DNA of 42,499 nt from sequence record OZ418230.1. One strand, written 5' to 3'. Numbering within the stretch: the stretch's first letter is position 1; every line of letters begins with the position of its first letter. The position numbers and the translations under genes are program-made. This DNA is from a phage. Shown piece after piece: positions 737 to 23,005 of this stretch. Below the pieces are notes generated by a model. The model made no database searches and had not been told where the DNA came from. It was given only the letters and a program-made list of their open reading frames with translations.

Positions 737-4417
<3,681 letters not shown>

Positions 4418-4437
<20 letters not shown>

Positions 4438-5749
4438 TCTCCCGCATATTGCCAGCATGGCCTTTAATGAGCCGCTGATGCTTGAACCCGCCTATGCGCG
4501 GGTTTTCTTTTGTGCGCTTGCAGGCCAGCTTGGGATCAGCCGCCTGACGGATGCAGTATCCGGCGACAGCCTGACTGCCGGAGAGGCACCCGCGGCGCTG
4601 GCGTTATCCGGTGATGATGACGGACCACGACAGGCCCGCAGTTATCAGGTCATGAACGGCATCGCCGTGCTGCCGGTGTCCGGTACGCTGGTCAGCCGGA
4701 CGCGGGCGCTGCAGCCGTATTCGGGAATGACCGGTTACAATGGCATTATCGCCCGTCTGCAACAGGCTGCCAGCGATCCGATGGTGGACGGCATTCTGCT
4801 CGATATGGACACACCGGGCGGGATGGTGGCGGGAGCATTTGACTGTGCTGACATCATCGCCCGTGTGCGAGACATAAAACCGGTATGGGCGCTGGCCAAC
4901 GACATGAACTGCAGTGCAGGTCAGCTGCTTGCCAGCGCCGCCTCCCGGCGTCTGGTCACGCAGACTGCCCGGACAGGCTCCATCGGCGTCATGATGGCTC
5001 ACAGTAATTACGGTGCTGCCCTGGAGAAACAGGGCGTGGAAATCACGCTGATTTACAGCGGCAGCCATAAGGTGGATGGCAATCCCTACAGCCATCTTCC
5101 GGATGACGTCCGGGAGACACTGCAGTCCCGGATGGACGCAACCCGCCAGATGTTTGCGCAGAAGGTGTCGGCATATACCGGCCTGTCTGTGCAGGCTGTG
5201 CTGGATACCGAGGCTGCAGTGTACAGCGGTCAGGAGGCCATTGATGCCGGACTGGCTGATGAACTTGTTAACAGCACCGATGCGATCACCGTCATGCGTG
5301 ATGCACTGGATGCACGTAAATCCCGTCTCTCAGGAGGGCGAATGACCAAAGAGACTCAATCAACAACTGTTTCAGCCACTGCTTCGCAGGCTGACATCAC
5401 CACCGTGGAGCCTGCGAAGGAGGGCGAAAACGCCAGCGCGGCGCAGCCGGATGTGAACGCACAGATCACCGCAGCGGTTGCGGCAGAAAACAGCCGCATT
5501 ATGGGGATCCTCAACTGTGAGGAGGCTCACGGACGCGAAGAACAGGCGCGCGTTCTGGCAGAAACCCCCGGAATGACCGTGGAAACGGCCCGCCGCATTC
5601 TGGCCGCAGCACCACAGAGTGCACAGGCGCGCAGTGACACTGCGCTGGATCGTCTGATGCAGGGTGCACCGGCACCGCTGGCTGCAGGTAACCTGGCATC
5701 TGATACCAATAAAGAATTACTTAATACACCTGAAGCTTTACCGGTATAA
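4418..5749 (+). CDS. C: head maturation protease / scaffold fusion (gpC)
   Basis: Lambda C begins VTAELRNLPHIASMAF... with GTG at 4418, in frame with the track ORF 4304..5749; upstream extension not used. Confidence 0.88.
5132..5749 (+). CDS. nu3: scaffolding protein Nu3 (nested in-frame in C)
   Basis: Internal in-frame ATG (MDATRQMF...) at the position corresponding to lambda Nu3 start. Confidence 0.7.
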   Translation: MDATRQMFAQKVSAYTGLSVQAVLDTEAAVYSGQEAIDAGLADELVNSTDAITVMRDALDARKSRLSGGRMTKETQSTTVSATASQADITTVEPAKEGENASAAQPDVNAQITAAVAAENSRIMGILNCEEAHGREEQARVLAETPGMTVETARRILAAAPQSAQARSDTALDRLMQGAPAPLAAGNLASDTNKELLNTPEALPV

Positions 5750-5758
5750 GAGGCAGTT

Positions 5759-6091
5759 ATGGCGACAAAAGAAGAGTTTAACCATTACCAGCCGCTGGGT
5801 AACAGTGATCCGGCTCATACAGCAATTGCGCCTGGCGGATTGAGTGCGAAAACGCCTGCAATGACCCCACTGATGCTGGATGGCACTACCCGTAAGCTGG
5901 TTGTGTGGGATGGCACCACCGACGGTGCAGCCGTTGGCATTCTGGCGGTTGCTGCTGACCAGACCAGCACCACACTGACGTTCTACAAGTCCGGCTCGTT
6001 CCGTTATGAGGATGTGCTCTGGCCGGAGGCTGCCAGCGACGAGACGAAAAAACGGACCGCGTTTGCCGGAACGGCAATCAGCATCGTTTAA
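5759..6091 (+). CDS. D: head decoration protein D
   Basis: 110 aa, matches lambda gpD. Confidence 0.95.
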
Positions 6092-6146
6092 TCTTCCCCT
6101 TCATCAACAAAGGCCGCCTGTGCGGCTTTTTTTATGGAAATAATTT

Positions 6147-7172
6147 ATGTCTGTATATACAACTGCAGAATTACTGGCATCGACCCAGCATCACTTTAAG
6201 TTCGATCCGCTGTTTCTGCGCCTGTTTTTCCGTGAAACCTATCCTTTCACCACGGAGAAAGTCTATCTCTCACAAATTCCGGGACTGGTAAACATGGCGC
6301 TGTACGTTTCGCCGATTGTTTCCGGTGAGGTTATCCGATCCCGTGGCGGCTCCACCTCTGAATTTACGCCGGGTTATGTCAAACCCAAGCATGAGGTGAA
6401 TCCGCAGATGACCCTGCGTCGCCTGCCGGATGAAGAACCGCAGAACCTGGCTGACCCGGCTTACCGTCGTCGCCGTATTATTCGGCAGAATATGCTGGAT
6501 GAAAATCTGGCGATTGCCCAGGTCGAAGAGATGCAGGCAGTTTCTGCCGTGCTTAAGGGCAAATACACCATGACCGGTGAAGCCTTCGATCCGGTTGAGG
6601 TGGATATGGGCCGCAGTGAGGCGAATAACATCACGCAGTCCGGCGGCACGGAGTGGAGCAAGCGTGACAAGTCCACGTATGATCCGACCGACGATATCGA
6701 AGCCTACGCGCTGAACGCCAGCGGAGTGGTGAATATCATCGTGTTTGATCCGAAAGGCTGGGCGCTGTTCCGTTCCTTCAAAGCCGTCAGGGAGAAGCTG
6801 GATACTCGTCGCGGCTCTCATTCCGAGCTGGAGACAGCGGTGAAAGACCTGGGCAAAGCGGTGTCCTACAAGGGGATGTATGGCGATGTGGCCATCGTCG
6901 TGTATTCCGGACAGTACGTGGAAAACGGCGTCAAAAAGAACTTCCTGCCGGACAACACGATGGTGCTGGGGAACACTCAGGCACGCGGTCTGCGCACCTA
7001 TGGCTGCATTCAGGATGCGGACGCACAGCGCGAAGGCATTAACTCCTCTGCCCGTTACCCGAAAAACTGGGTGACCACCGGCGATCCGGCGCGTGAGTTC
7101 ACCATGATTCAGTCAGCACCGCTGATGCTGCTGGCTGACCCTGATGAGTTCGTGTCCGTACAACTGGCGTAA
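6147..7172 (+). CDS. E: major capsid protein E
   Basis: 341 aa, matches lambda gpE. Confidence 0.95.
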   Translation: MSVYTTAELLASTQHHFKFDPLFLRLFFRETYPFTTEKVYLSQIPGLVNMALYVSPIVSGEVIRSRGGSTSEFTPGYVKPKHEVNPQMTLRRLPDEEPQNLADPAYRRRRIIRQNMLDENLAIAQVEEMQAVSAVLKGKYTMTGEAFDPVEVDMGRSEANNITQSGGTEWSKRDKSTYDPTDDIEAYALNASGVVNIIVFDPKGWALFRSFKAVREKLDTRRGSHSELETAVKDLGKAVSYKGMYGDVAIVVYSGQYVENGVKKNFLPDNTMVLGNTQARGLRTYGCIQDADAQREGINSSARYPKNWVTTGDPAREFTMIQSAPLMLLADPDEFVSVQLA

Positions 7173-7213
7173 TCGTGGCCCTTCGGGGCCATTTTCTCTA
7201 TGTGGAGGAGTCC

Positions 7214-7609
7214 ATGACGAAAGGTGAACTGATTGTCCGTCTCCGGTCGCTGGGTGAGCAACTGAACCGTGATGTCAGCCTGACGGGGACGAAAGAAGAA
7301 CTGGCGCTCCGTGTGGCAGAGCTGGAAGAGGAGCTTGATGACACGGATGACGCTGCCGGTCAGGATACCCCTCTCAGACCGGAAAATGCGCTGACCGGAC
7401 ATGAAAATGAGGTGGTATCAGCGCAGCCGGATACCATGATTGATACGGCTGCTCTGGTCACGGTCGTGGCACTGGTGACGCTGCATACTGATGCACTTCA
7501 CGCCACGCGGGATGAACCTGTGGCATTTGTGCTGCCGGGAACGGCGTTTCGTGTCTCTGCCGGTGTGGCAGCCGAAATGACAGAACGTGGCCTGGCCAGA
7601 ATGCAATAA
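7214..7609 (+). CDS. FI: DNA packaging protein FI
   Basis: Starts MTKGELIVRLRSLGEQLNRD... as lambda FI; ATG at 7214 in frame with track ORF 7175..7609. Confidence 0.85.
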   Translation: MTKGELIVRLRSLGEQLNRDVSLTGTKEELALRVAELEEELDDTDDAAGQDTPLRPENALTGHENEVVSAQPDTMIDTAALVTVVALVTLHTDALHATRDEPVAFVLPGTAFRVSAGVAAEMTERGLARMQ

Positions 7610-7620
7610 CGGGAGGCGCT

Positions 7621-7974
7621 GTGGCTGATTTCGATAACCTGTTCGATGCTGCCATTGCCCGCGCCGATGAAACGATACGCGGGTACATGGGAACGTCAGC
7701 CACCATGACATCCGGTGAGCAGTCCGGCGCAGTAATACGTGGTGTTTTTGATGACCCTGAAAATATCAGCTATGCCGGACAGGGCGTACGCGTTGAAGGC
7801 TCCAGCCCGTCCCTGTTTGTCCGGACTGATGATGTGCGGCAGCTGCGGCGCGGCGACACGCTGACCATCGGTGAGGAAAACTTCTGGATAGACCGGATTT
7901 CGCCGGATGATGGTGGAAGCTGTCATCTCTGGCTTGGGCGGGGCGTACCGCCTGCCGTTAACCGTCGCCGCTGA
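7621..7974 (+). CDS. FII: head-tail connector FII
   Basis: 117 aa, GTG start, matches lambda FII. Confidence 0.9.
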   Translation: MADFDNLFDAAIARADETIRGYMGTSATMTSGEQSGAVIRGVFDDPENISYAGQGVRVEGSSPSLFVRTDDVRQLRRGDTLTIGEENFWIDRISPDDGGSCHLWLGRGVPPAVNRRR

Positions 7975-7985
7975 AAGGGGGATGT

Positions 7986-8564
7986 ATGGCCATAAAAGGT
8001 CTTGAGCAGGCCGTTGAAAACCTCAGCCGTATCAGCAGAACGGCGGTGCCTGGTGCCGCCGCAATGGCCATTAACCGCGTTGCTTCATCCGCGATATCGC
8101 AGTCGGCGTCACAGGTTGCCCGTGAGACAAAGGTACGCCGGAAACTGGTAAAGGAAAGGGCCAGGCTGAAAAGGGCCACGGTCAAAAATCCGCAGGCCAG
8201 AATCAGGGTTAACCGGGGGGATTTGCCCGTAATAAAGCTGGGTAACGCGCGGATTGTCCTGTCCCGACGCAGGCGTCGTAAAAAGGGGCAGCGTTCAGCC
8301 CTGAAAGGTGGCGGCAGCGTGCTTGTGGTGGGAAACCGTCGTATTCCCGGCGCGTTTATTCAGCAACTGAAAAATGGCCGCTGGCATGTTATGCAGCGTG
8401 TGGCCGGGAAAAATCGTTACCCCATTGATGTGGTGAAAATTCCGATGGCGGTGCCGCTGACCACGGCGTTTAAACAGAATATTGAGCGGATACGGCGTGA
8501 GCGTCTTCCGAAAGAGCTGGGCTATGCGCTGCAGCATCAACTGAGGATGGTAATAAAGCGATGA
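7986..8564 (+). CDS. Z: tail completion protein Z
   Basis: 192 aa, lambda gpZ-like. Confidence 0.9.
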   Translation: MAIKGLEQAVENLSRISRTAVPGAAAMAINRVASSAISQSASQVARETKVRRKLVKERARLKRATVKNPQARIRVNRGDLPVIKLGNARIVLSRRRRRKKGQRSALKGGGSVLVVGNRRIPGAFIQQLKNGRWHVMQRVAGKNRYPIDVVKIPMAVPLTTAFKQNIERIRRERLPKELGYALQHQLRMVIKR

Positions 8565-15532: not shown

Positions 15533-18500
15533 ATGGGTAAAGGCAGCAGTAAGGGGCATACCCCGCGCGAAGCGAAGGACAACCTGAAGTCCACGCAGCT
15601 GCTGAGTGTGATCGATGCCATCAGCGAAGGGCCGGTTGAAGGTCCGGTGGATGGATTAAAAAGCGTGCTGCTGAACAGTACGCCGGTGCTGGACAGTGAG
15701 GGGAATACCAATATCTCCGGTGTCACGGTGGTGTTCCGGGCAGGTGAGCAGGAGCAGACTCCGCCGGAGGGGTTTGAATCCTCCGGCTCCGAGACGGTGC
15801 TGGGTACGGAAGTGAAATATGACATGCCGATCACCCGCACCATCACGTCGGCAAACATCGACCGTCTGCGCTTTACTTTCGGCGTGCAGGCACTGGTGGA
15901 AACTACCTCAAAGGGGGACAGGAATCCGTCGGAAGTCCGTCTGCTGGTTCAGATACAGCGTAATGGTGGCTGGGTGACGGAAAAAGACATCACCATTAAA
16001 GGCAAAACCACCTCGCAGTATCTGGCCTCGGTGGTGGTGGATAACCTGCCGCCGCGCCCGTTTAATATCCGGATGCGCAGGATGACGCCGGACAGCACCA
16101 CAGACCAGCTGCAGAACAAAACGCTCTGGTCGTCATACACCGAAATCATCGATGTGAAACAGGGCTACCCGAACACGGCACTGGTCGGCGTGCAGGTGGA
16201 CTCGGAACAGTTCGGCAGTCAGCAGGTGAGCCGTAATTATCATCTTCGCGGGCGCATTCTGCAGGTGCCGTCGAACTATAACCCGCAGACGCGGCAATAC
16301 AGCGGTATCTGGGACGGAACGTTAAAACCGGCATACAGCAACAACATGGCCTGGTGTCTGTGGGATATGCTGACCCATCCGCGCTACGGCATGGGAAAAC
16401 GTCTTGGTGCGGCGGATGTGGATAAATGGGCGCTGTATGTCATCGGCCAGTACTGCGACCAGTCGGTGCCGGACGGCTTTGGCGGCACGGAGCCGCGCAT
16501 TACCTGTAATGCGTACCTGACCACACAGCGCAAGGCGTGGGATGTGCTCAGTGATTTCTGCTCGGCGATGCGCTGTATGCCGGTATGGAACGGGCAGACG
16601 CTGACGTTCGTGCAGGACCGACCATCAGATAAGGTGTGGACCTATAACCGCAGTAATGTGGTGATGCCGGATGATGGCGCGCCGTTCCGCTACAGCTTCA
16701 GCGCCCTGAAGGACCGCCATAATGCCGTTGAGGTGAACTGGATTGACCCGGATAACGGCTGGGAGACGGCGACAGAGCTCGTGGAGGATACGCAGGCCAT
16801 TGCCCGTTACGGTCGTAATGTCACGAAGATGGATGCCTTTGGCTGTACCAGTCGGGGGCAGGCACACCGCGCCGGGCTGTGGCTGATTAAAACGGAACTG
16901 CTGGAAACGCAGACCGTGGATTTCAGCGTCGGCGCAGAAGGGCTTCGCCATGTACCGGGCGATGTTATTGAAATCTGTGATGATGACTATGCCGGTATCA
17001 GCACCGGTGGTCGTGTGCTGGCGGTGAACAGCCAGACCCGGACGCTGACGCTCGACCGTGAAATCACGCTGCCATCCTCCGGTACCACGCTGATAAGCCT
17101 GGTTGACGGAAGTGGCAATCCGGTCAGCGTGGAGGTTCAGTCCGTCACCGACGGCGTGAAGGTAAAAGTGAGCCGTGTTCCTGACGGTGTTGCTGAATAC
17201 AGCGTATGGGGGCTGAAGCTGCCGACGCTGCGCCAGCGCCTGTTCCGCTGTGTGAGTATCCGGGAGAACGATGACGGTACGTATGCCATCACCGCCGTGC
17301 AGCATGTACCGGAAAAAGAAGCCATCGTGGATAACGGGGCGCACTTTGACGGCGACCAGAGCGGCACGGTGAATGGTGTCACGCCGCCAGCGGTGCAGCA
17401 CCTGACCGCCGAAGTCACCACAGACAGCGGGGAATATCAGGTGCTGGCGCGATGGGACACGCCGAAGGTGGTGAAGGGCGTGAGCTTCCTGCTTCGCCTT
17501 ACCGTGGCAGCGGACGACGGCAGTGAGCGGCTGGTCAGCATGGCCCGGACGACGGAAACCACATACCGCTTCAGGCAACTGGCGCTGGGGAACTACAGGC
17601 TGACAGTCCGGGCGGTAAATGCGTGGGGGCAGCAGGGCGATCCGGCATCGGTATCGTTCCGGATTGCCGCACCGGCAGCGCCGTCGCAGATTGAGCTGAC
17701 ACCGGGGTATTTTCAGATAACCGCCACGCCCCATCTTGCCGTTTATGATCCGACGGTACAGTTTGAGTTCTGGTTCTCGGAAAAGCGGATTGCGGATATC
17801 AGGCAGGTTGAAACCACAGCCCGCTATCTTGGCACGGCGCTGTACTGGATAGCTGCCAGTATCAATATCAAACCGGGCCATGATTATTATTTTTACATCC
17901 GCAGTGTGAACACCGTTGGCAAATCGGCATTTGTGGAGGCTGTTGGCCAGCCGAGTGATGATGCATCCGGCTATCTGGATTTTTTCAAAGGCGAGATAGG
18001 GAAAAGCCATCTGGCTCAGGAGCTGTGGACGCAGATTGATAACGGTCAGCTTGCGCCTGACCTGGCTGAAATCAGGACGTCCATTACGGATGTCAGCAAT
18101 GAAATCACGCAGACCGTCAATAAGAAACTGGAAGACCAGAGTGCGGCAATTCAGCAGATACAGAAGGTTCAGGTTGATACAAATAATAACCTGAACAGCA
18201 TGTGGGCTGTGAAGCTGCAGCAGATGCAGGACGGACGCCTTTATATCGCGGGTATTGGTGCCGGTATTGAGAACACCCCTGACGGCATGCAGAGTCAGGT
18301 GCTGCTGGCGGCGGACAGGATTGCGATGATTAATCCTGCGAATGGCAATACAAAGCCGATGTTTGTTGGGCAGGGCGATCAGATATTCATGAACGAAGTG
18401 TTCCTGAAATATCTGACGGCTCCCACCATTACCAGCGGTGGCAATCCCCCAACGTTTTCACTGACACCTGATGGTCGACTTTCTGCGAGAAATGCGGATA

Positions 18501-19015
18501 TCAGCGGTAACGTGAATGCGAACTCCGGGACGCTCAATAATGTCACGATTAACCAGAACTGTCGGATTCTGGGAAAACTGTCAGCTAACCAGATTGAAGG
18601 TGATATTGTCAAAACGGTGGGAAAAGCCTTTCCGAGAAATGGCAGTTATGCCAGCGGTACAATAACGGTCACTGTGTACGATGACCAGGCTTTTGACCGT
18701 CAGATAGTCGTCCCCCCCGTTCTGTTTCGCGGTGGTAAGCATGAAAACTTCAACAGCAACAACCAACAGTCATACTGGTATTCAACCTGTAAGCTGCAGG
18801 TGCTGAAGAACGGACAGGAAATCTTTCAGCAACCCGCGACGGATGTCAGCAGGGTATTTTCATCAGTCATTGATATGCCTGCCGGACACGGCCATGTCAC
18901 CCTGACTTTCAATGTTTCTTCATATGGTGCAAATAACTGGACGCCAACGACCAGTATCAGCGACCTTCTTGTTGTCGTGATGAAGAAATCAACAGCCGGC
19001 ATCAGTATCAGTTGA
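15533..19015 (+). CDS. J: central tail fibre / host-specificity protein J
   Basis: 1160 aa; lambda J-like over most of the length, C-terminal ~150 aa divergent (lambda J is 1132 aa). Confidence 0.92.
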
Positions 19016-19034
19016 ATTTTAAAACCCAAATTCG

Positions 19035-19058
19035 GGCACCAGAAATGGTGCCTTTTTT
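19035..19058 (+). terminator. rho-independent terminator after J
   Basis: Hairpin ggcacc-agaaat-ggtgcc followed by TTTTTT. Confidence 0.6.
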
Positions 19059-19073
19059 ATTTGTGGAGTGAAT

Positions 19074-21095
19074 ATGGCAGTACAGATTTCAGGTGTGCTG
19101 AAAGACGGTGCAGGAAAACCGATACAGAACTGCACCATTCAGCTCAAAGCAAAACGTAACAGCACCACAGTTGTGGTGAACACGGTGGCCTCAGAAAATC
19201 CGGATGAAGCCGGACGTTACAGCATGGATGTTGAGTATGGCCAGTACAGCGTCGCCCTGCTGGTTGAAGGTTTTCCGCCTTCACATGCCGGGACCATCAC
19301 CGTGTATGAGGATTCTAAGCCGGGGACATTGAATGATTTTCTGGGCGCTGCAACAGAAGATGATGTTTGTCCGGAGGCACTGTATCGTTTTGAAAAGATG
19401 GTGGAAGAGGCGGCACGCAACGCTGAAGCCGCCTCTCAGAGCGCAGCGGCAGCAAAGAAATCAGAAACAGCAGCGGCATCGTCCAGGAACGCGGCGAAAA
19501 CATCAGAGACGAATGCAGGTAACAGCGCGAAAGCGGCAGCTTCTTCAAAAACAGCCGCACAAAACGCAGCAACAGCGGCAGAACGTTCAGAGACAAATGC
19601 CCGTGCGTCAGAAGAAGCCTCCGCAGACAGTGAAGAGGCTTCCCGCCGTAATGCAGAGTCAGCCGCTGAAAATGCCGGAGTCGCCACCACAAAAGCGCGG
19701 GAGGCCGCAGCAGACGCAACAAAGGCCGGGCAGAAAAAGGATGAGGCTCTGTCGGCAGCGACACGAGCTGAAAAGGCGGCAGACCGCGCAGAAGCCGCAG
19801 CGGAAGTGACTGCAGAGCCCTGTGCGAATATAGTGCCGCCGCTGCCTGATGTGTGGATACCGTTTAACGATTCACTGGATATGATTACGGGTTTTTCGCC
19901 ATCTTATAAAAAGATAGTTATTGGTGACGATGAAATAACAATGCCAGGCGACAAGATTGTTAAGTTTAAACGTGCTTCAACAGCAACGTATATTAATAAG
20001 TCCGGCCAACTCAAGCTTGCTGAAGTTGACGAACCGCGATTTGAGCGCGATGGCTTATTGATTGAAGGACAGAGGACAAATTATCTGAGGAACTCAAATA
20101 AACCAGACTCATGGACTGTTCATTCCGCACTGAATAAAACATTTGGCACTGATAAACAGGGGTTCAATTATGCCACGGTGACACCCACGGAAAGTATAGT
20201 GGGAACAACAGGTGGCTATACTGTGCATGGTGTGGTTGCAGCAGACAGATTCCCGCTGGCAAGTGGTGAATGTTTCACTTTTTCGTGCCGGGTTAAAGGC
20301 GCTAAAGCACGATGCAGGTTAAGAGTTTCAGTTATTATTGGTGGAACAGATACCTTCTCTGCTGACTCTTATCTTGATCTGGATACCCGGATCGCAACAG
20401 TAAGCGGTAATACATCCCTTATAACAGCCAAAGCTGAACAACAGGGCGAGTGGACCTACTATGAGGCCACTTATACAGCTAATACGGACATTGATACCGT
20501 TAACTGTGCTTTTTATATGACAAATAAAATAAGTAATGAGCCATTCTATGATGACTCAACATTAACCATGACGACGCCGCAAATTGAACTGGGCAATACG
20601 GCATCGTCATTTATTGTAACTACAATGCCAACAACACGCGCAAGTGATGTAGTTACTATCCCATCGCAGAATAACCTGTCAACACGGCCTTTTACGGTAT
20701 TGTGCGAAGTAAGCAGGAACTGGAGTACACCGCCCAATGTTGCGCCAAGGATATTTGATGTTGGAGGGCACAGTATTGATGATAATTATTTATCGCTGGG
20801 GTTTGTTGCAACAGGAAAGATAAGCGCCAACGTAGGAATGGTTCAGCCACAAATTGCCTCAGATGGAGAAAGGTTCATTGTGGGTGTGAGAGCTAAATCT
20901 GATTTATCAGTAAATGCAATATGCAATGGTAATTATACAACAAACCTTAATGGTAAAATATTTGGAGTTACAGCAACATCGTACCGGTTTGGTGGGCAGA
21001 CCGCAGCAGGAACGCGTCATTTGTTTGGACACATCAGAAATTTCAGAGTCTGGTTTAAAGAATTAAATGACAGGCAAATCAAGGAGGCAGTATGA
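19074..21095 (+). CDS. stf: side tail fibre protein, mosaic (lambda Stf-like N-terminus, Ala-rich repeat region, divergent distal domain)
   Basis: N-terminal ~110 aa match lambda orf-401/Stf (MAVQISGVLKDGAGKPIQNCTIQLKA...); central A/S/E-rich repeats with recurring SETNA motifs; C-terminal ~420 aa not lambda-like and lower GC. Confidence 0.8.
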   Translation: MAVQISGVLKDGAGKPIQNCTIQLKAKRNSTTVVVNTVASENPDEAGRYSMDVEYGQYSVALLVEGFPPSHAGTITVYEDSKPGTLNDFLGAATEDDVCPEALYRFEKMVEEAARNAEAASQSAAAAKKSETAAASSRNAAKTSETNAGNSAKAAASSKTAAQNAATAAERSETNARASEEASADSEEASRRNAESAAENAGVATTKAREAAADATKAGQKKDEALSAATRAEKAADRAEAAAEVTAEPCANIVPPLPDVWIPFNDSLDMITGFSPSYKKIVIGDDEITMPGDKIVKFKRASTATYINKSGQLKLAEVDEPRFERDGLLIEGQRTNYLRNSNKPDSWTVHSALNKTFGTDKQGFNYATVTPTESIVGTTGGYTVHGVVAADRFPLASGECFTFSCRVKGAKARCRLRVSVIIGGTDTFSADSYLDLDTRIATVSGNTSLITAKAEQQGEWTYYEATYTANTDIDTVNCAFYMTNKISNEPFYDDSTLTMTTPQIELGNTASSFIVTTMPTTRASDVVTIPSQNNLSTRPFTVLCEVSRNWSTPPNVAPRIFDVGGHSIDDNYLSLGFVATGKISANVGMVQPQIASDGERFIVGVRAKSDLSVNAICNGNYTTNLNGKIFGVTATSYRFGGQTAAGTRHLFGHIRNFRVWFKELNDRQIKEAV

Positions 21096-21370
21096 AAGAT
21101 TTAACTTTGAAATTTCCTGGTAACAGAGAGTTTAAATCCTTCCTGTCATCTCTTGACTGGGAGGAGGATGAAGACCTCCAGAATAAACTGTTAGTCGATG
21201 AAATTGGTTTCACCTACACAGAAACAGGGGTAACAGAAGAGGGAGAACCTGTCTGTGTCCGGAATGACGGTTATTTTGTCAACATTCGCATTCTTGATGA
21301 CTTGTTTGATGTTTCTGTATTCTCTGATTATGTCGTGGAGCTGGAAACACCGCTTCGGGAATGGAGCTGA
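21092..21370 (+). CDS. small acidic hypothetical protein (possible tail fibre chaperone)
   Basis: 92-aa ORF with ATGA overlap on stf stop; no family recognised. Confidence 0.45.
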   Translation: MKDLTLKFPGNREFKSFLSSLDWEEDEDLQNKLLVDEIGFTYTETGVTEEGEPVCVRNDGYFVNIRILDDLFDVSVFSDYVVELETPLREWS

Positions 21371-21382
21371 AAGGAGGAAATA

Positions 21383-21610
21383 ATGGATATAAGCCCCTTA
21401 CTTCATGCACTTTGTGCTGTGGCTGCGCAGATACTGGTTGGTCTTTTTACCGGAAACTGGGCTTACGGAGCGATAGCCGGTTGTACGTTCTTCATTGCGC
21501 GTGAACATACCCAGGCAGAATATCGCTGGATTGAAATGTTCGGGCATGGCAAGCGAATGAATATGCCGTGGTGGGGCGGTTTTGATGTTACGCCATATGG
21601 GCTGGACTGA
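21383..21610 (+). CDS. hypothetical small hydrophobic protein
   Basis: 75-aa ORF with hydrophobic N-terminus; its last codons run into the icd-homologous segment in a different frame, so could be fortuitous. Confidence 0.3.
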
Positions 21611-21749
21611 AGCCGCAGACCTGATTGTTAAAGGTATGGAAGGCGCAATCAACGCCAAGACTGTAACCTATGACTTCGAACGTCTGATGGAAGGCGCTAA
21701 ATTGCTGAAATGTAGCGAGTTTGGCGACGCGATCATCAAGAACATGTAA
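21585..21749 (+). other. attP-associated substitute 3' end of host icd (isocitrate dehydrogenase)
   Basis: Open frame translating [54 protein letters not shown], near-identical to the E. coli Icd C-terminus; phages 21 and e14 integrate in icd. Confidence 0.8.
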
Positions 21750-21772
21750 TCACTACATGTGTTAAATATTTA

Positions 21773-21800
21773 AACGGGCGTGTTATACGCCCGTTGTTTT
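21773..21800 (+). terminator. rho-independent terminator following the icd 3' segment
   Basis: Stem aacgggcg/cgcccgtt with 7-nt loop followed by gtttt. Confidence 0.65.
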
Positions 21801-21815
21801 ATGATGATGTAAAAT

Positions 21816-21852
21816 CTTCCCCAAAACTTTCCCCAAAACCCTTCCCCAAAAC
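21816..21852. repeat. three tandem 12-13 bp direct repeats (c/t)ttccccaaaac; candidate integrase arm-type sites
   Basis: cttccccaaaac / tttccccaaaac / ccttccccaaaac in direct succession between the icd segment and the int 3' end. Confidence 0.6.
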
Positions 21853-21862
21853 TGGCTATTTT

Positions 21863-23005
21863 CTATGCTGTTTTGATATCTACGATAACCCAGTCTTTAC
21901 CACGATCATCATTGTATCGGTCGGTCATTTTTCTGGATTTATGGCCTAACAACTTTTGCGTATCCAGACCCTGTTCCCGATATAACCGTTCTGACAGAGA
22001 TCGCTGCTCATGAAATGTGGGCGCAGTTCCTTGCTCCCATTTTATGCCACATTTTTCCCTGGCCTTTTTAAAAGCCGTTGTCAGAGTATTTGCAGAAACC
22101 TGGTCTCCTCTGTTTGCTTGAGAGGTAGTGTGACGGTAATGGACCAGATATTTACTAACAACAGCATCCCTGCACTGAGATATAACTTCACGAAGGGTAA
22201 TATTCAGAGCATCGCATTTCAGGTTAAGCGGAATAGCAAGTTTTGAACCGGTTTTTTCCTGAGTAATGTGCAACATGTCGTCCCAGATATCAGAGAATTT
22301 CAAATTGCAGATATCACCTAAACGTTGTCCAGTAACAAGAGCAAGTAGCATGCCGCATTTTAAATAGGGCTGCCGTCTGCTTACGCTTTCAAATATTGCC
22401 TGCCATTCGGGCAGTGACAATCTTTGGCGGTTTACTCGATTTCGCGGTTGTTTTGTTGCCTGCGCTGGGTTAAATCCTGGCGGAACATGTCCTGCGTGTT
22501 GTGCTTCTTTGAAGACGTCGATCAACACCATTCTCACGACTTGCGCCATCCTGTTATGACCTTCAGCCTTTACAGCATCAATTATTTCGGCAATATCAAG
22601 TGCGGTAATATCCTTGAGGTGTTGCATTCCACAATGCTCACGGAAAAGACGAATGGGTTTGCCTTTTTGCCGATAGGAGTTGGGTCTTAGTTCATTATGT
22701 TGCAGCCTGTCCTCCTGGATAGAAATATATTTATCAAGCCATTCTGTCACCGTAATTTCTGAGCGCCTGCCTTTCATTCTTTCCAGACGCTCATTGACGC
22801 TTAATATTTGTCGGGTACGTTGTTCAGCAATAATGGTATTTGCTTCAGTAGCAACTTGTTTTGCTTCATTCTCATCAGTTCCTAAGCTATGAAAACGACC
22901 GGATAGTGGATGTTTGTATTGCCAATATACCTTTCCGGTTCGCTTATCTAATTTGCAATATAAATTGGGTATAGAGATTTTGTGAGATCGGGGTCTAGCA
23001 GCCAT
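21863..23005 (-). CDS. int: tyrosine integrase, phage 21/e14 (icd-targeting) type
   Basis: 380 aa with tyrosine-recombinase C-terminal region (…HEQRSLSERLYREQGLDTQKLLGHKS…); resembles e14 IntE from memory; adjacent to attP. Confidence 0.9.
   Translation of the reverse strand: MAARPRSHKISIPNLYCKLDKRTGKVYWQYKHPLSGRFHSLGTDENEAKQVATEANTIIAEQRTRQILSVNERLERMKGRRSEITVTEWLDKYISIQEDRLQHNELRPNSYRQKGKPIRLFREHCGMQHLKDITALDIAEIIDAVKAEGHNRMAQVVRMVLIDVFKEAQHAGHVPPGFNPAQATKQPRNRVNRQRLSLPEWQAIFESVSRRQPYLKCGMLLALVTGQRLGDICNLKFSDIWDDMLHITQEKTGSKLAIPLNLKCDALNITLREVISQCRDAVVSKYLVHYRHTTSQANRGDQVSANTLTTAFKKAREKCGIKWEQGTAPTFHEQRSLSERLYREQGLDTQKLLGHKSRKMTDRYNDDRGKDWVIVDIKTA

What the first reader, a model, noticed from the sequence alone, without database searches (positions are those of the whole stretch)
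19074..21370. Mosaic side tail fibre: lambda Stf N-terminus, Ala/Ser/Glu-rich repeat shaft and an unrelated low-GC distal domain, with a small acidic ORF downstream
Seen: the first ~110 aa match lambda orf-401/Stf. Residues ~115-250 are a low-complexity repeat region with recurring SETNA motifs. The last ~420 aa are unrelated to lambda Stf and lower in GC. The gene is a single uninterrupted ORF, unlike the frameshifted stf of laboratory lambda. A 92-aa acidic ORF overlaps the stop (ATGA). lom, which in lambda sits between J and stf, is absent. Inference: a swapped receptor-binding domain with its cognate chaperone, giving a distinct secondary receptor.
Basis: partly seen in the sequence, partly recalled or inferred. 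Interest (0 to 1): 0.55.

Follow-up and report, generated by a model that had tools for sequence, protein, structure and literature searches.

The report
Phage-21-type side tail fibre cassette
This is an ordinary, very common lambdoid-phage side tail fibre whose sugar-binding tip has been swapped in as a cassette, and that tip is almost always followed by a small uncharacterised acidic protein that is probably its assembly helper.

Summary
Window 19074-21095 is one intact 673-aa stf gene. It has a lambda-type collar (aa 1-94, PF08400 over aa 1-131), an Ala-rich heptad shaft (to aa ~250) and a ~420-aa low-GC distal module unrelated to lambda orf-314. A 92-aa acidic ORF (21092-21370, pI 4.05) overlaps its stop codon (ATGA). 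lom is absent.

None of this is new as sequence. The pair is 100% identical in 11 phage records, the Stf protein occurs on more than 1000 E. coli contigs, and phage 21 has the same layout.

The distal module has a conserved neck, a hypervariable CBM4-like sandwich homologous to the capsule-binding RcGTA head-spike fibre, and a probable LamG-like domain. It occurs on several unrelated N-terminal anchors.

The small ORF matches no Pfam, NCBIfam or PDB entry and is unrelated to lambda Tfa. It is nevertheless tightly linked to the module: 92 of 93 homologues follow a module-bearing fibre gene, 79 of 80 such fibre genes are followed by it, and start and stop codons overlap in 91 of 93.

It does not co-vary with the specificity domains. 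It is 93% identical to the phage 21 homologue, while those domains are about 27% identical.

Verdict: a swapped glycan-binding tip with a generic, probably assembly-related partner. Chaperone activity and the receptor are untested.

The parts
19034..19058 (+). Terminator-like hairpin plus T-run in the 58-bp J-stf spacer. No lom gene is present here.
   Evidence: 8-pair stem at 19034-19053, then TTTTTATTTG. Phage 21 annotates a terminator at the homologous position.
19074..21095 (+). stf, the side tail fibre gene: 673 aa, intact single ORF
   Evidence: phrog_1419 E 1.5e-294; identical protein P0095 on at least 1000 contigs.
19074..19355 (+). Stf aa 1-94: collar domain that docks the fibre on the tail tip
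   Evidence: 9e7m_Ta, E 1.5e-49. PF08400 covers aa 1-131. The collar role comes from the Ur-lambda cryo-EM study (PMC12617516).
19377..19823 (+). Stf aa ~102-250: Ala/Ser/Glu-rich heptad shaft, a probable trimeric coiled coil, GC 0.60
   Evidence: 37% Ala, autocorrelation peaks at 7/14/21, SETNA twice. (similar to the lambda shaft). Lambda Stf aa 102-393 is described as a coiled coil.
19830..20093 (+). Stf aa 253-340: conserved neck of the distal module (PLPDVWIPFNDSL ... ATYINKSG ... EPRFERDGLLIEGQRTN). It serves as the left recombination flank.
   Evidence: mean pairwise identity 0.66. (boundary against phage 21 at about 19900-20080). AF2 pLDDT is below 60 as a monomer.
20058..20642 (+). Stf aa 329-523: domain 1, a hypervariable CBM4-like beta-sandwich carrying the 'GTA head spike fiber' domain
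   Evidence: NF048003, 66.8 bits against a cut-off of 36. (RcGTA Rcc01080 E 9e-37; gp17 9occ_C E 7e-15). (pLDDT 85-93). (Pa193 and E217 baseplate proteins; CBM4 1gui E 2e-4).
20643..21092 (+). Stf aa 524-673: conserved hinge (SSFIVT...TRASD), then domain 2, a probable LamG-like jelly roll, ending in the conserved tail GHIRNFRVWFKELNDRQIKEAV
   Evidence: conservation. (BoNT HCN domain, E 0.01). (homologues carry PF13385). (neurexin LNS domain, E 2.5e-4). AF2 confidence is low here.
21092..21370 (+). orf92: a 92-aa acidic partner protein (phrog_1361), translationally coupled to stf
   Evidence: AF2 pLDDT 89.8; 92 of 93 linkage; start/stop overlap in 91 of 93; 79 of 80 in the converse test.

Best explanation
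The region encodes a phage-21-type (Jouyvirus) side tail fibre and a small partner protein made by coupled translation.

By homology to Ur-lambda, Stf aa 1-94 form collar domains that dock four fibre trimers on the tail tip. Aa ~102-250 form a short Ala-rich coiled-coil shaft. The distal ~420 aa are a portable receptor-binding module. It has a conserved neck, a hypervariable CBM4-like sandwich homologous to the capsule-binding RcGTA head-spike fibre, and a second, probably LamG-like, jelly roll with a conserved C-terminal tail.

Inferred function of the fibre: it gives reversible first contact with a surface polysaccharide (O-antigen, capsule or LPS core) before J engages its porin.

Inferred function of orf92: it acts on the conserved framework of the module (neck and/or C-terminal tail). 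It is most likely a folding or oligomerisation helper that is generic for all specificity variants, not a specificity determinant.

Shown here: the domain homologies, the mosaic boundaries, the obligate gene linkage, the start/stop overlap and the lack of co-variation with the specificity domains. Inferred: glycan binding, trimeric state, chaperone activity and absence of orf92 from virions.
For: Collar and shaft.

Module portability: the same module occurs on a 704-aa fibre of a non-lambdoid prophage (45% identity), on P2 gpH-like and other anchors, and without any anchor.

Glycan-binding homology: NF048003; a profile of the module hits RcGTA Rcc01080 at E 9e-37; Foldseek matches to CBM4, CBM22 and phage baseplate lectin-like proteins; RcGTA fibre binding to cells is increased by capsule (PMC10218006).

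Partner linkage: 92 of 93 orf92 homologues lie directly after a module-bearing fibre gene. Conversely, 79 of 80 such fibre genes are followed by orf92, and the remaining locus is cut by the contig end. Start and stop codons overlap in 91 of 93. A probable, weaker-scoring example (33.7 bits) of the same pairing occurs in an alphaproteobacterial locus that resembles a GTA head-spike locus.

Real protein: AF2 pLDDT 89.8; dN 0.27-0.38 with dS saturated; strong Shine-Dalgarno sequence.

Generic rather than specificity-matched: orf92 identity tracks the neck (rho 0.76) and the C-terminal tail (0.65), not D1 (0.12) or D2 (0.33). It is 93% identical to the phage 21 homologue although D1 and D2 are 27-28% identical.

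The highly conserved neck is predicted with low confidence as a monomer. This would fit a region that needs oligomerisation or a partner.
Against: There is no experimental evidence for chaperone activity, virion composition or receptor.

The correlation may only reflect shared clade structure, and hypervariable domains are saturated.

The RcGTA head-spike fibre, which has only domain 1, was expressed in E. coli as a fluorescent fusion that bound cells without any such partner, and its downstream genes are CPS genes. Domain 1 alone therefore does not need orf92.

Domain 2 is modelled with low confidence. The window protein itself does not pass the Pfam thresholds for Laminin_G_3 or CBM_4_9.
Confidence: 0.6

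Rival explanations
1. orf92 is a structural subunit of the fibre tip that stays on the virion. It could act as a cap or adhesin, like T4-type gp38 or the transient chaperone caps of Alteromonas phage fibres.
For: The obligate linkage and translational coupling fit a stoichiometric partner as well as they fit a chaperone. There is precedent for chaperones that remain as caps on shared host-recognition modules (PMC10579305, listed).
Against: If it were the adhesin, it should co-vary with host specificity. Instead it is conserved across very different D1 and D2 domains. It is small and very acidic, and has no lectin-like fold.
Confidence: 0.25
2. orf92 is an unrelated moron (lysogenic conversion, exclusion or anti-defence gene) that merely sits next to stf.
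For: It lies at the moron-rich right end of the late operon, next to a small membrane-protein gene and, in relatives, sitABCD. It has no annotated function (phrog_1361).
Against: Its linkage to the module persists across unrelated phage types and positions, including a head-proximal locus and an alphaproteobacterial locus. The start codon overlaps the fibre gene's stop in 91 of 93 cases. The neighbouring membrane ORF does not travel with the module.
Confidence: 0.05
3. The distal module is an enzyme (a depolymerase or glycosidase) rather than a lectin-type binder.
For: One homologue is named 'sialidase' by its source (P0318). Foldseek lists sialidase, endo-glycosidase and tailspike entries.
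Against: Those structural matches fall on the carbohydrate-binding or lectin domains of those proteins and have low TM-scores. No catalytic-domain family is detected. The closest characterised relative, the RcGTA head-spike fibre, is a binder.
Confidence: 0.07

Closest known systems
Phage 21 side tail fibre CPT_21_22 plus hypothetical protein CPT_21_23 (OL657228; PMC9119081)
   Same: Same gene order: J, terminator, stf, a 92-aa ORF overlapping the stop codon, then a small membrane protein. Stf aa 1-~275 are at least 97% identical in DNA, and orf92 is 93% identical in protein.
   Different: Domains 1 and 2 are only 27-28% identical, so this is a different specificity allele. Phage 21 keeps the full 97-aa membrane ORF and sitABCD.
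Ur-lambda Stf (orf-401 plus orf-314) with Tfa
   Same: Homologous collar domain and an Ala-rich coiled-coil shaft. A downstream small gene follows the fibre gene.
   Different: The distal part is not the gp37-like OmpC-binding domain. The partner is unrelated to Tfa and half its size. The shaft is much shorter, and there is no lom.
RcGTA head spike fibre GhsB/Rcc01080 (PDB sequence 6tb9_F3; NCBIfam NF048003)
   Same: Domain 1, plus part of the neck, is homologous. The RcGTA protein is a characterised capsule-associated adsorption protein.
   Different: It is mounted on capsid vertices through a 10-residue N-terminus. It lacks domain 2 and the conserved C-terminal tail. No orf92-like gene follows it; rcc01081-86 are CPS genes.
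Pseudomonas phage Pa193 gp46 and E217 gp45 baseplate proteins, and tail fibre gp17 of 9occ
   Same: They share the domain 1 sandwich by sequence profile (E 1e-13 to 7e-15) and by fold (Foldseek E 2e-8).
   Different: They sit in different virion locations (myovirus baseplate, another phage's tail fibre) and have different flanking domains. Whether a partner gene follows them was not examined.
Shared tail-fibre plus chaperone host-recognition modules of Alteromonas phages (PMC10579305)
   Same: The same concept: a fibre tip and its small downstream partner move together between unrelated phage families.
   Different: No homology was tested or expected. The resemblance is by analogy only, taken from the abstract listed.

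Membership tests
Lambdoid side tail fibre (Stf), N-terminal anchor | PF08400 'Prophage tail fibre N-terminal' / collar domain that docks on the tail tip | tested here: met
   225.3 bits against a cut-off of 26.6, aa 1-131; the 9e7m collar matches aa 1-94 with E 1.5e-49.
Lambdoid side tail fibre (Stf), N-terminal anchor | Gene located directly downstream of J in the late operon | tested here: met
   J (1160 aa, with the J domains) ends at 19015 and stf starts at 19074.
Lambda Stf / T4 gp37-type distal receptor-binding region | Sequence similarity to lambda orf-314 | tested here: not met
   best BLASTP E-value 0.24.
Tfa / Caudo_TAP tail fibre assembly chaperones (for orf92) | Sequence or profile similarity to lambda Tfa or to Pfam tail-fibre-assembly families | tested here: not met
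   (no alignment). (hhalign probability 0.05). (no Pfam family for any of 27 family members).
Tail fibre chaperone, functional class (for orf92) | Small gene immediately downstream of, and co-inherited with, the fibre's distal domain | tested here: met
   92 of 93; 79 of 80; start/stop overlap in 91 of 93.
Tail fibre chaperone, functional class (for orf92) | Required for folding or trimerisation of the fibre, and absent or substoichiometric in virions | not testable with these tools
   This needs co-expression, deletion genetics and virion proteomics.
Intramolecular chaperone fibres (Peptidase_S74) | C-terminal PF13884 domain | tested here: not met
   no hit in Stf. An S74 fibre is a separate neighbouring gene in the non-lambdoid prophage.
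GTA head spike fibre domain (NCBIfam NF048003) | Score above the curated cut-off | tested here: met
   66.8 bits against 36, aa 329-523; the module profile matches Rcc01080 with E 9.2e-37.
CBM4/9 carbohydrate-binding modules | Pfam PF02018 above the gathering score; CBM4-like fold | tested here: inconclusive
   22.2 bits, below the 25.9 cut-off. Foldseek matches CBM4 1gui (E 2e-4, TMt 0.52) and CBM22 4xuo. This is a fold resemblance without family membership.
LamG-like / Laminin_G_3 (PF13385) jelly roll (domain 2) | Pfam match, or a confident LamG fold | tested here: inconclusive
   The window protein gives no PF13385 hit. Many homologues carry it. The profile matches the BoNT HCN domain at E 0.01. 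The AF2 pLDDT of this domain is only about 45-75.

The most novel reading that the evidence does not exclude
orf92 (phrog_1361) founds an unrecognised family of fibre-partner proteins dedicated to the 'head-spike-fibre plus LamG' receptor-binding module. The family would be conserved from alphaproteobacterial loci that look like GTA head-spike loci to enterobacterial phage tail fibres. It would be required for assembly of that module whatever its sugar specificity and wherever it is mounted, on head or tail. If so, any engineered lambda Stf chimera that carries this module would need orf92 co-expressed.
Probability: 0.45. Interest if true: 0.5.

Novelty: new member of a known kind. Interest (0 to 1): 0.33.

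Why it matters
The fibre itself is routine. It is one of the commonest Stf alleles in E. coli prophages and is the phage 21 type.

What may be useful is the rule that emerges from the comparisons. A portable, hypervariable glycan-binding tip travels with a strictly linked, specificity-independent 92-aa protein that no database names. If that protein is an assembly factor, it would add a new chaperone family to the few already known: Tfa/gp38, gp57A and the S74 intramolecular chaperone.

It would also bear on host-range prediction from prophage sequences. And it would give practical guidance for lambda-based delivery particles with swapped STF tips: carry orf92 along with the tip.

A smaller point concerns annotation. 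RefSeq currently splits this intact gene into two 'pseudogene' fragments.

Tried and rejected
1. Tandem Repeats Finder on the shaft DNA found nothing. The repetition is a degenerate heptad pattern at protein level only.

2. The first homologue search with the Stf distal part was saturated by more than 120 identical E. coli entries and was useless for an alignment. This was solved by searching with a profile of diverse modules.

4. Large proteins hit by the orf92 profile (P0188, P0193, P0210, P0214) are TPR or PKD repeat proteins, so these hits are spurious.

5. The search for related loci with the full diverse orf92 alignment failed because it had no conserved stretch. A sub-alignment worked.

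6. I checked whether the IS4 copy in the viable phage Lambda_4B5 disrupts stf, which would have shown that stf is dispensable. It lies in the J-stf spacer, so it is uninformative.

7. The papers on engineered lambda STF chimeras, Gifsy-1 Stf and phage 21 coevolution say nothing about this module or about orf92.

8. I considered and rejected two ideas: that orf92 is a Tfa-like chaperone, and that it is specificity-cognate.
Full report
**What is in the window**

The window is a complete lambdoid phage genome: terminase genes at the left end, J at 15533-19015, and an icd-type integration module after the fibre genes.

The finding's coordinates are exact.
- stf is a single 673-aa ORF at 19074-21095.
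- A 92-aa ORF at 21092-21370 starts with an ATG that overlaps the stf TGA (ATGA). AGGAGG lies 4 nt upstream of that ATG.
- J and stf are separated by only 58 bp, which hold a terminator-like hairpin at 19034-19053 and no lom gene. Lambda has lom there.

**How common it is**

- The stf-orf92 stretch (window 19000-21586) is 100% identical in 11 phage records, including Lambda_2E9 and 1H12 (genus Jouyvirus), and 99.7% identical in PhiR47_2.
- It is 100% identical in many complete E. coli chromosomes.
- The exact Stf protein is recorded on at least 1000 contigs (P0095).
- Phage 21 has the same layout, annotated 'side tail fiber' followed by 'hypothetical protein' (PMC9119081).

As sequence, therefore, nothing here is new.

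**Anatomy of Stf**

- Aa 1-131 match PF08400 (E 2.8e-67). Aa 1-94 match the solved Ur-lambda Stf collar domain (9e7m, E 1.5e-49). Identity to lambda orf-401 is 73% over aa 1-158.
- In Ur-lambda, twelve collar domains dock four Stf trimers on the tail tip, and aa 102-393 form a coiled coil (PMC12617516).
- Here the shaft is shorter, aa ~102-250. It is 37% Ala with clear 7/14/21 periodicity. 'SETNA' occurs exactly twice, plus one SETAA, and there is no DNA tandem repeat.
- The remaining ~420 aa have no similarity to lambda orf-314. They are low in GC: 0.43, against 0.60 in the shaft and 0.56 in J.

**The distal module**

An alignment of 28 diverse copies (A4) shows four parts:
- a strongly conserved neck, aa 253-340 (PLPDVWIPFNDSL ... 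ATYINKSG ... EPRFERDGLLIEGQRTN);
- a hypervariable domain 1;
- a conserved hinge (Q.E ... SS(F/Y)I.T ... TRA.D);
- a variable domain 2 ending in a conserved tail (GHIRNFRVW ... L.D.QIKE).

Domain 1:
- It passes the NCBIfam 'GTA head spike fiber' model (66.8 bits against a cut-off of 36).
- The module profile hits the RcGTA head-spike fibre Rcc01080 at E 9e-37, a tail fibre gp17 (9occ) at 7e-15, and the Pseudomonas phage Pa193 and E217 baseplate proteins at about 2e-13.
- AlphaFold2 with a 71-sequence alignment models it at pLDDT 85-93.
- Foldseek finds those baseplate proteins and CBM4/CBM22 modules.

Domain 2:
- It is modelled poorly (pLDDT about 45-75).
- Homologues carry Laminin_G_3.
- The profile weakly matches the LamG-like HCN domain of botulinum toxins (E 0.01).
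- Foldseek lists neurexin LNS domains.

The RcGTA fibre mediates adsorption, and its binding to cells is increased by capsule (PMC10218006, PMC5026251). A polysaccharide receptor is therefore the best inference for this Stf. It is still an inference.

**The module is portable**

The same module sits on several kinds of protein (sequences, module matches):
- lambda-type anchors (window, phage 21, L009-L012);
- a 671-704-aa fibre of a non-lambdoid E. coli prophage, encoded between the head and tail-tube genes (45% identity);
- P2 gpH-like N-termini (L015, L016);
- other anchors with KTSETNA shafts (L036, L059);
- a 444-aa anchorless protein in a tandem second cassette (L026).

Against phage 21 the DNA identity profile runs as follows:

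| Window coordinates | Identity to phage 21 |
|---|---|
| up to ~19900 | at least 97% |
| ~19900-20080 | 60-75% |
| ~20080-20980 | about 40% |
| ~20980-21160 | 65-82% |
| 21160-21586 | about 100% |

The exchanged unit is therefore Stf aa ~275-673 plus the first ~23 codons of orf92.

**The 92-aa ORF**

Evidence that it is a real protein:
- 45 clusters at 90% identity in Escherichia and Shigella;
- 78 representatives with E at most 0.001 in 1.84 billion proteins, a few of them spurious repeat proteins;
- a confident AF2 model, pLDDT 89.8: a strand, two helices and a long beta-hairpin;
- dN of 0.27-0.38 with dS saturated;
- pI 4.05.

No known relatives:
- no Pfam hit for any of 27 family members;
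- no NCBIfam hit;
- no PDB sequence hit below E = 1;
- only uncharacterised phage proteins in BFVD;
- no relation to lambda Tfa.

**Linkage between orf92 and the module**

- In 92 of 93 instances of an orf92 homologue, the ORF directly upstream ends with the module. The exception is cut by a contig end.
- The start codon overlaps the fibre gene's stop by 4 nt (16 cases) or 1 nt (75 cases).
- Conversely, of 80 module-bearing fibre genes collected through the module alone, 79 are followed by orf92 and one is cut off.
- A probable further example occurs in the alphaproteobacterium Martelella lutilitoris. Its layout resembles a GTA head-spike locus: an 87-aa ORF, a 430-aa module protein and a 117-aa orf92-like ORF, which scores only 33.7 bits.
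- RcGTA's own fibre has domain 1 only and is followed by CPS genes, not by an orf92-like gene. It was also expressed in E. coli as a fluorescent fusion that bound cells, without a partner. The partner therefore seems tied to the longer module (neck, domain 2 and tail) rather than to domain 1.

**Is it 'cognate'?**

Not in the sense of matching specificity.
- Against phage 21, D1 and D2 are 27-28% identical, while orf92 is 93% identical. All its differences lie in the first 16 residues, which are inside the swapped DNA.
- Across 69 distinct pairs of module and partner, orf92 identity correlates with the neck (Spearman 0.76) and the C-terminal tail (0.65). It barely correlates with D1 (0.12) or D2 (0.33).
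- This fits a generic factor acting on the conserved framework. Shared ancestry and saturation of the variable domains could produce the same pattern.
- The neck is the most conserved segment yet is predicted at low confidence as a monomer. That is what one expects of a segment that folds only as an oligomer or with a partner.

**Conclusion**

'Cognate chaperone' should be rephrased: orf92 is an obligately linked, specificity-independent partner of unknown biochemistry, and an assembly helper is the leading hypothesis (about 0.6).

The main rivals are a virion-retained cap or adhesin (0.25), an unrelated moron (0.05) and an enzymatic tip (0.07).

The finding is an ordinary member of a known kind. 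Its one mildly interesting product is the unnamed partner family and its strict pairing rule.

Noticed in passing
window 21383-21610 and 21582-21749: The ORF after orf92 is a truncated copy (75 aa; the first 68 aa are identical) of the 97-aa two-TM membrane protein of phage 21. At about 21586 it runs straight into the phage-borne icd 3' fragment. Compared with the otherwise identical phages 2E9 and 1H12, about 5.5 kb carrying the sitABCD moron is missing, and the deletion ends exactly where icd homology begins.
   Followed up: partly
window 21582-23005: This is a phage 21/e14-type integration module. It comprises an icd C-terminal fragment ([21 protein letters not shown]...), a strong terminator-like hairpin at 21773-21795, and a 380-aa ORF on the minus strand at 21863-23005 whose homologous region in relatives is annotated as integrase.
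   Followed up: no
L004 (E. coli 118UI, NZ_CP032515.1) 6075-8096: RefSeq/PGAP annotates the 100%-identical, intact stf as two 'incomplete' pseudogene fragments, one named for the tail fibre N-terminal domain and one for the head spike fibre domain. The Ala-rich shaft between them is left unannotated. This looks like an annotation artefact rather than gene decay.
   Followed up: partly
L005-L008 (E. coli prophages) about 3887-7369: In a non-lambdoid prophage the module-bearing fibre (671-704 aa) and its orf92 homologue lie between the head-completion genes and the tail-tube gene. A separate Peptidase_S74 fibre gene follows them. This raises the question of whether that fibre is mounted on the head or neck rather than the tail tip.
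   Followed up: no
L026 4709-7903: Two tandem cassettes: a 730-aa fibre plus an orf92 homologue, then a 444-aa module protein with no N-terminal anchor plus a second orf92 homologue.
   Followed up: no
L099 (Martelella lutilitoris) 2456-4351: An alphaproteobacterial chromosomal locus whose layout resembles a GTA head-spike locus. It has an 87-aa ORF, a 430-aa head-spike-fibre/LamG-like protein and an overlapping 117-aa orf92-like ORF, which scores only 33.7 bits against the orf92 family HMM. This suggests the pairing is old and not specific to tails.
   Followed up: partly
L101 (Lambda_4B5) 365-1711, and E. coli hits H26-H36: IS elements sit in or next to this fibre region in a viable phage and in many E. 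coli prophages. In Lambda_4B5 the IS4 copy lies in the J-stf spacer. Other genomes carry IS3 or IS5. Polar effects on stf expression were not assessed.
   Followed up: partly
window about 17750-19015: GC content drops from about 0.63 to about 0.48-0.51 in the last ~1.2 kb of J, the receptor-binding end. The central fibre tip may therefore be mosaic as well.
   Followed up: no
L037 5979-7377: Here the orf92 homologue lies at the start of a stop-to-stop open frame of about 1.4 kb. This could be a fusion or a missing stop codon, and was not examined.
   Followed up: no
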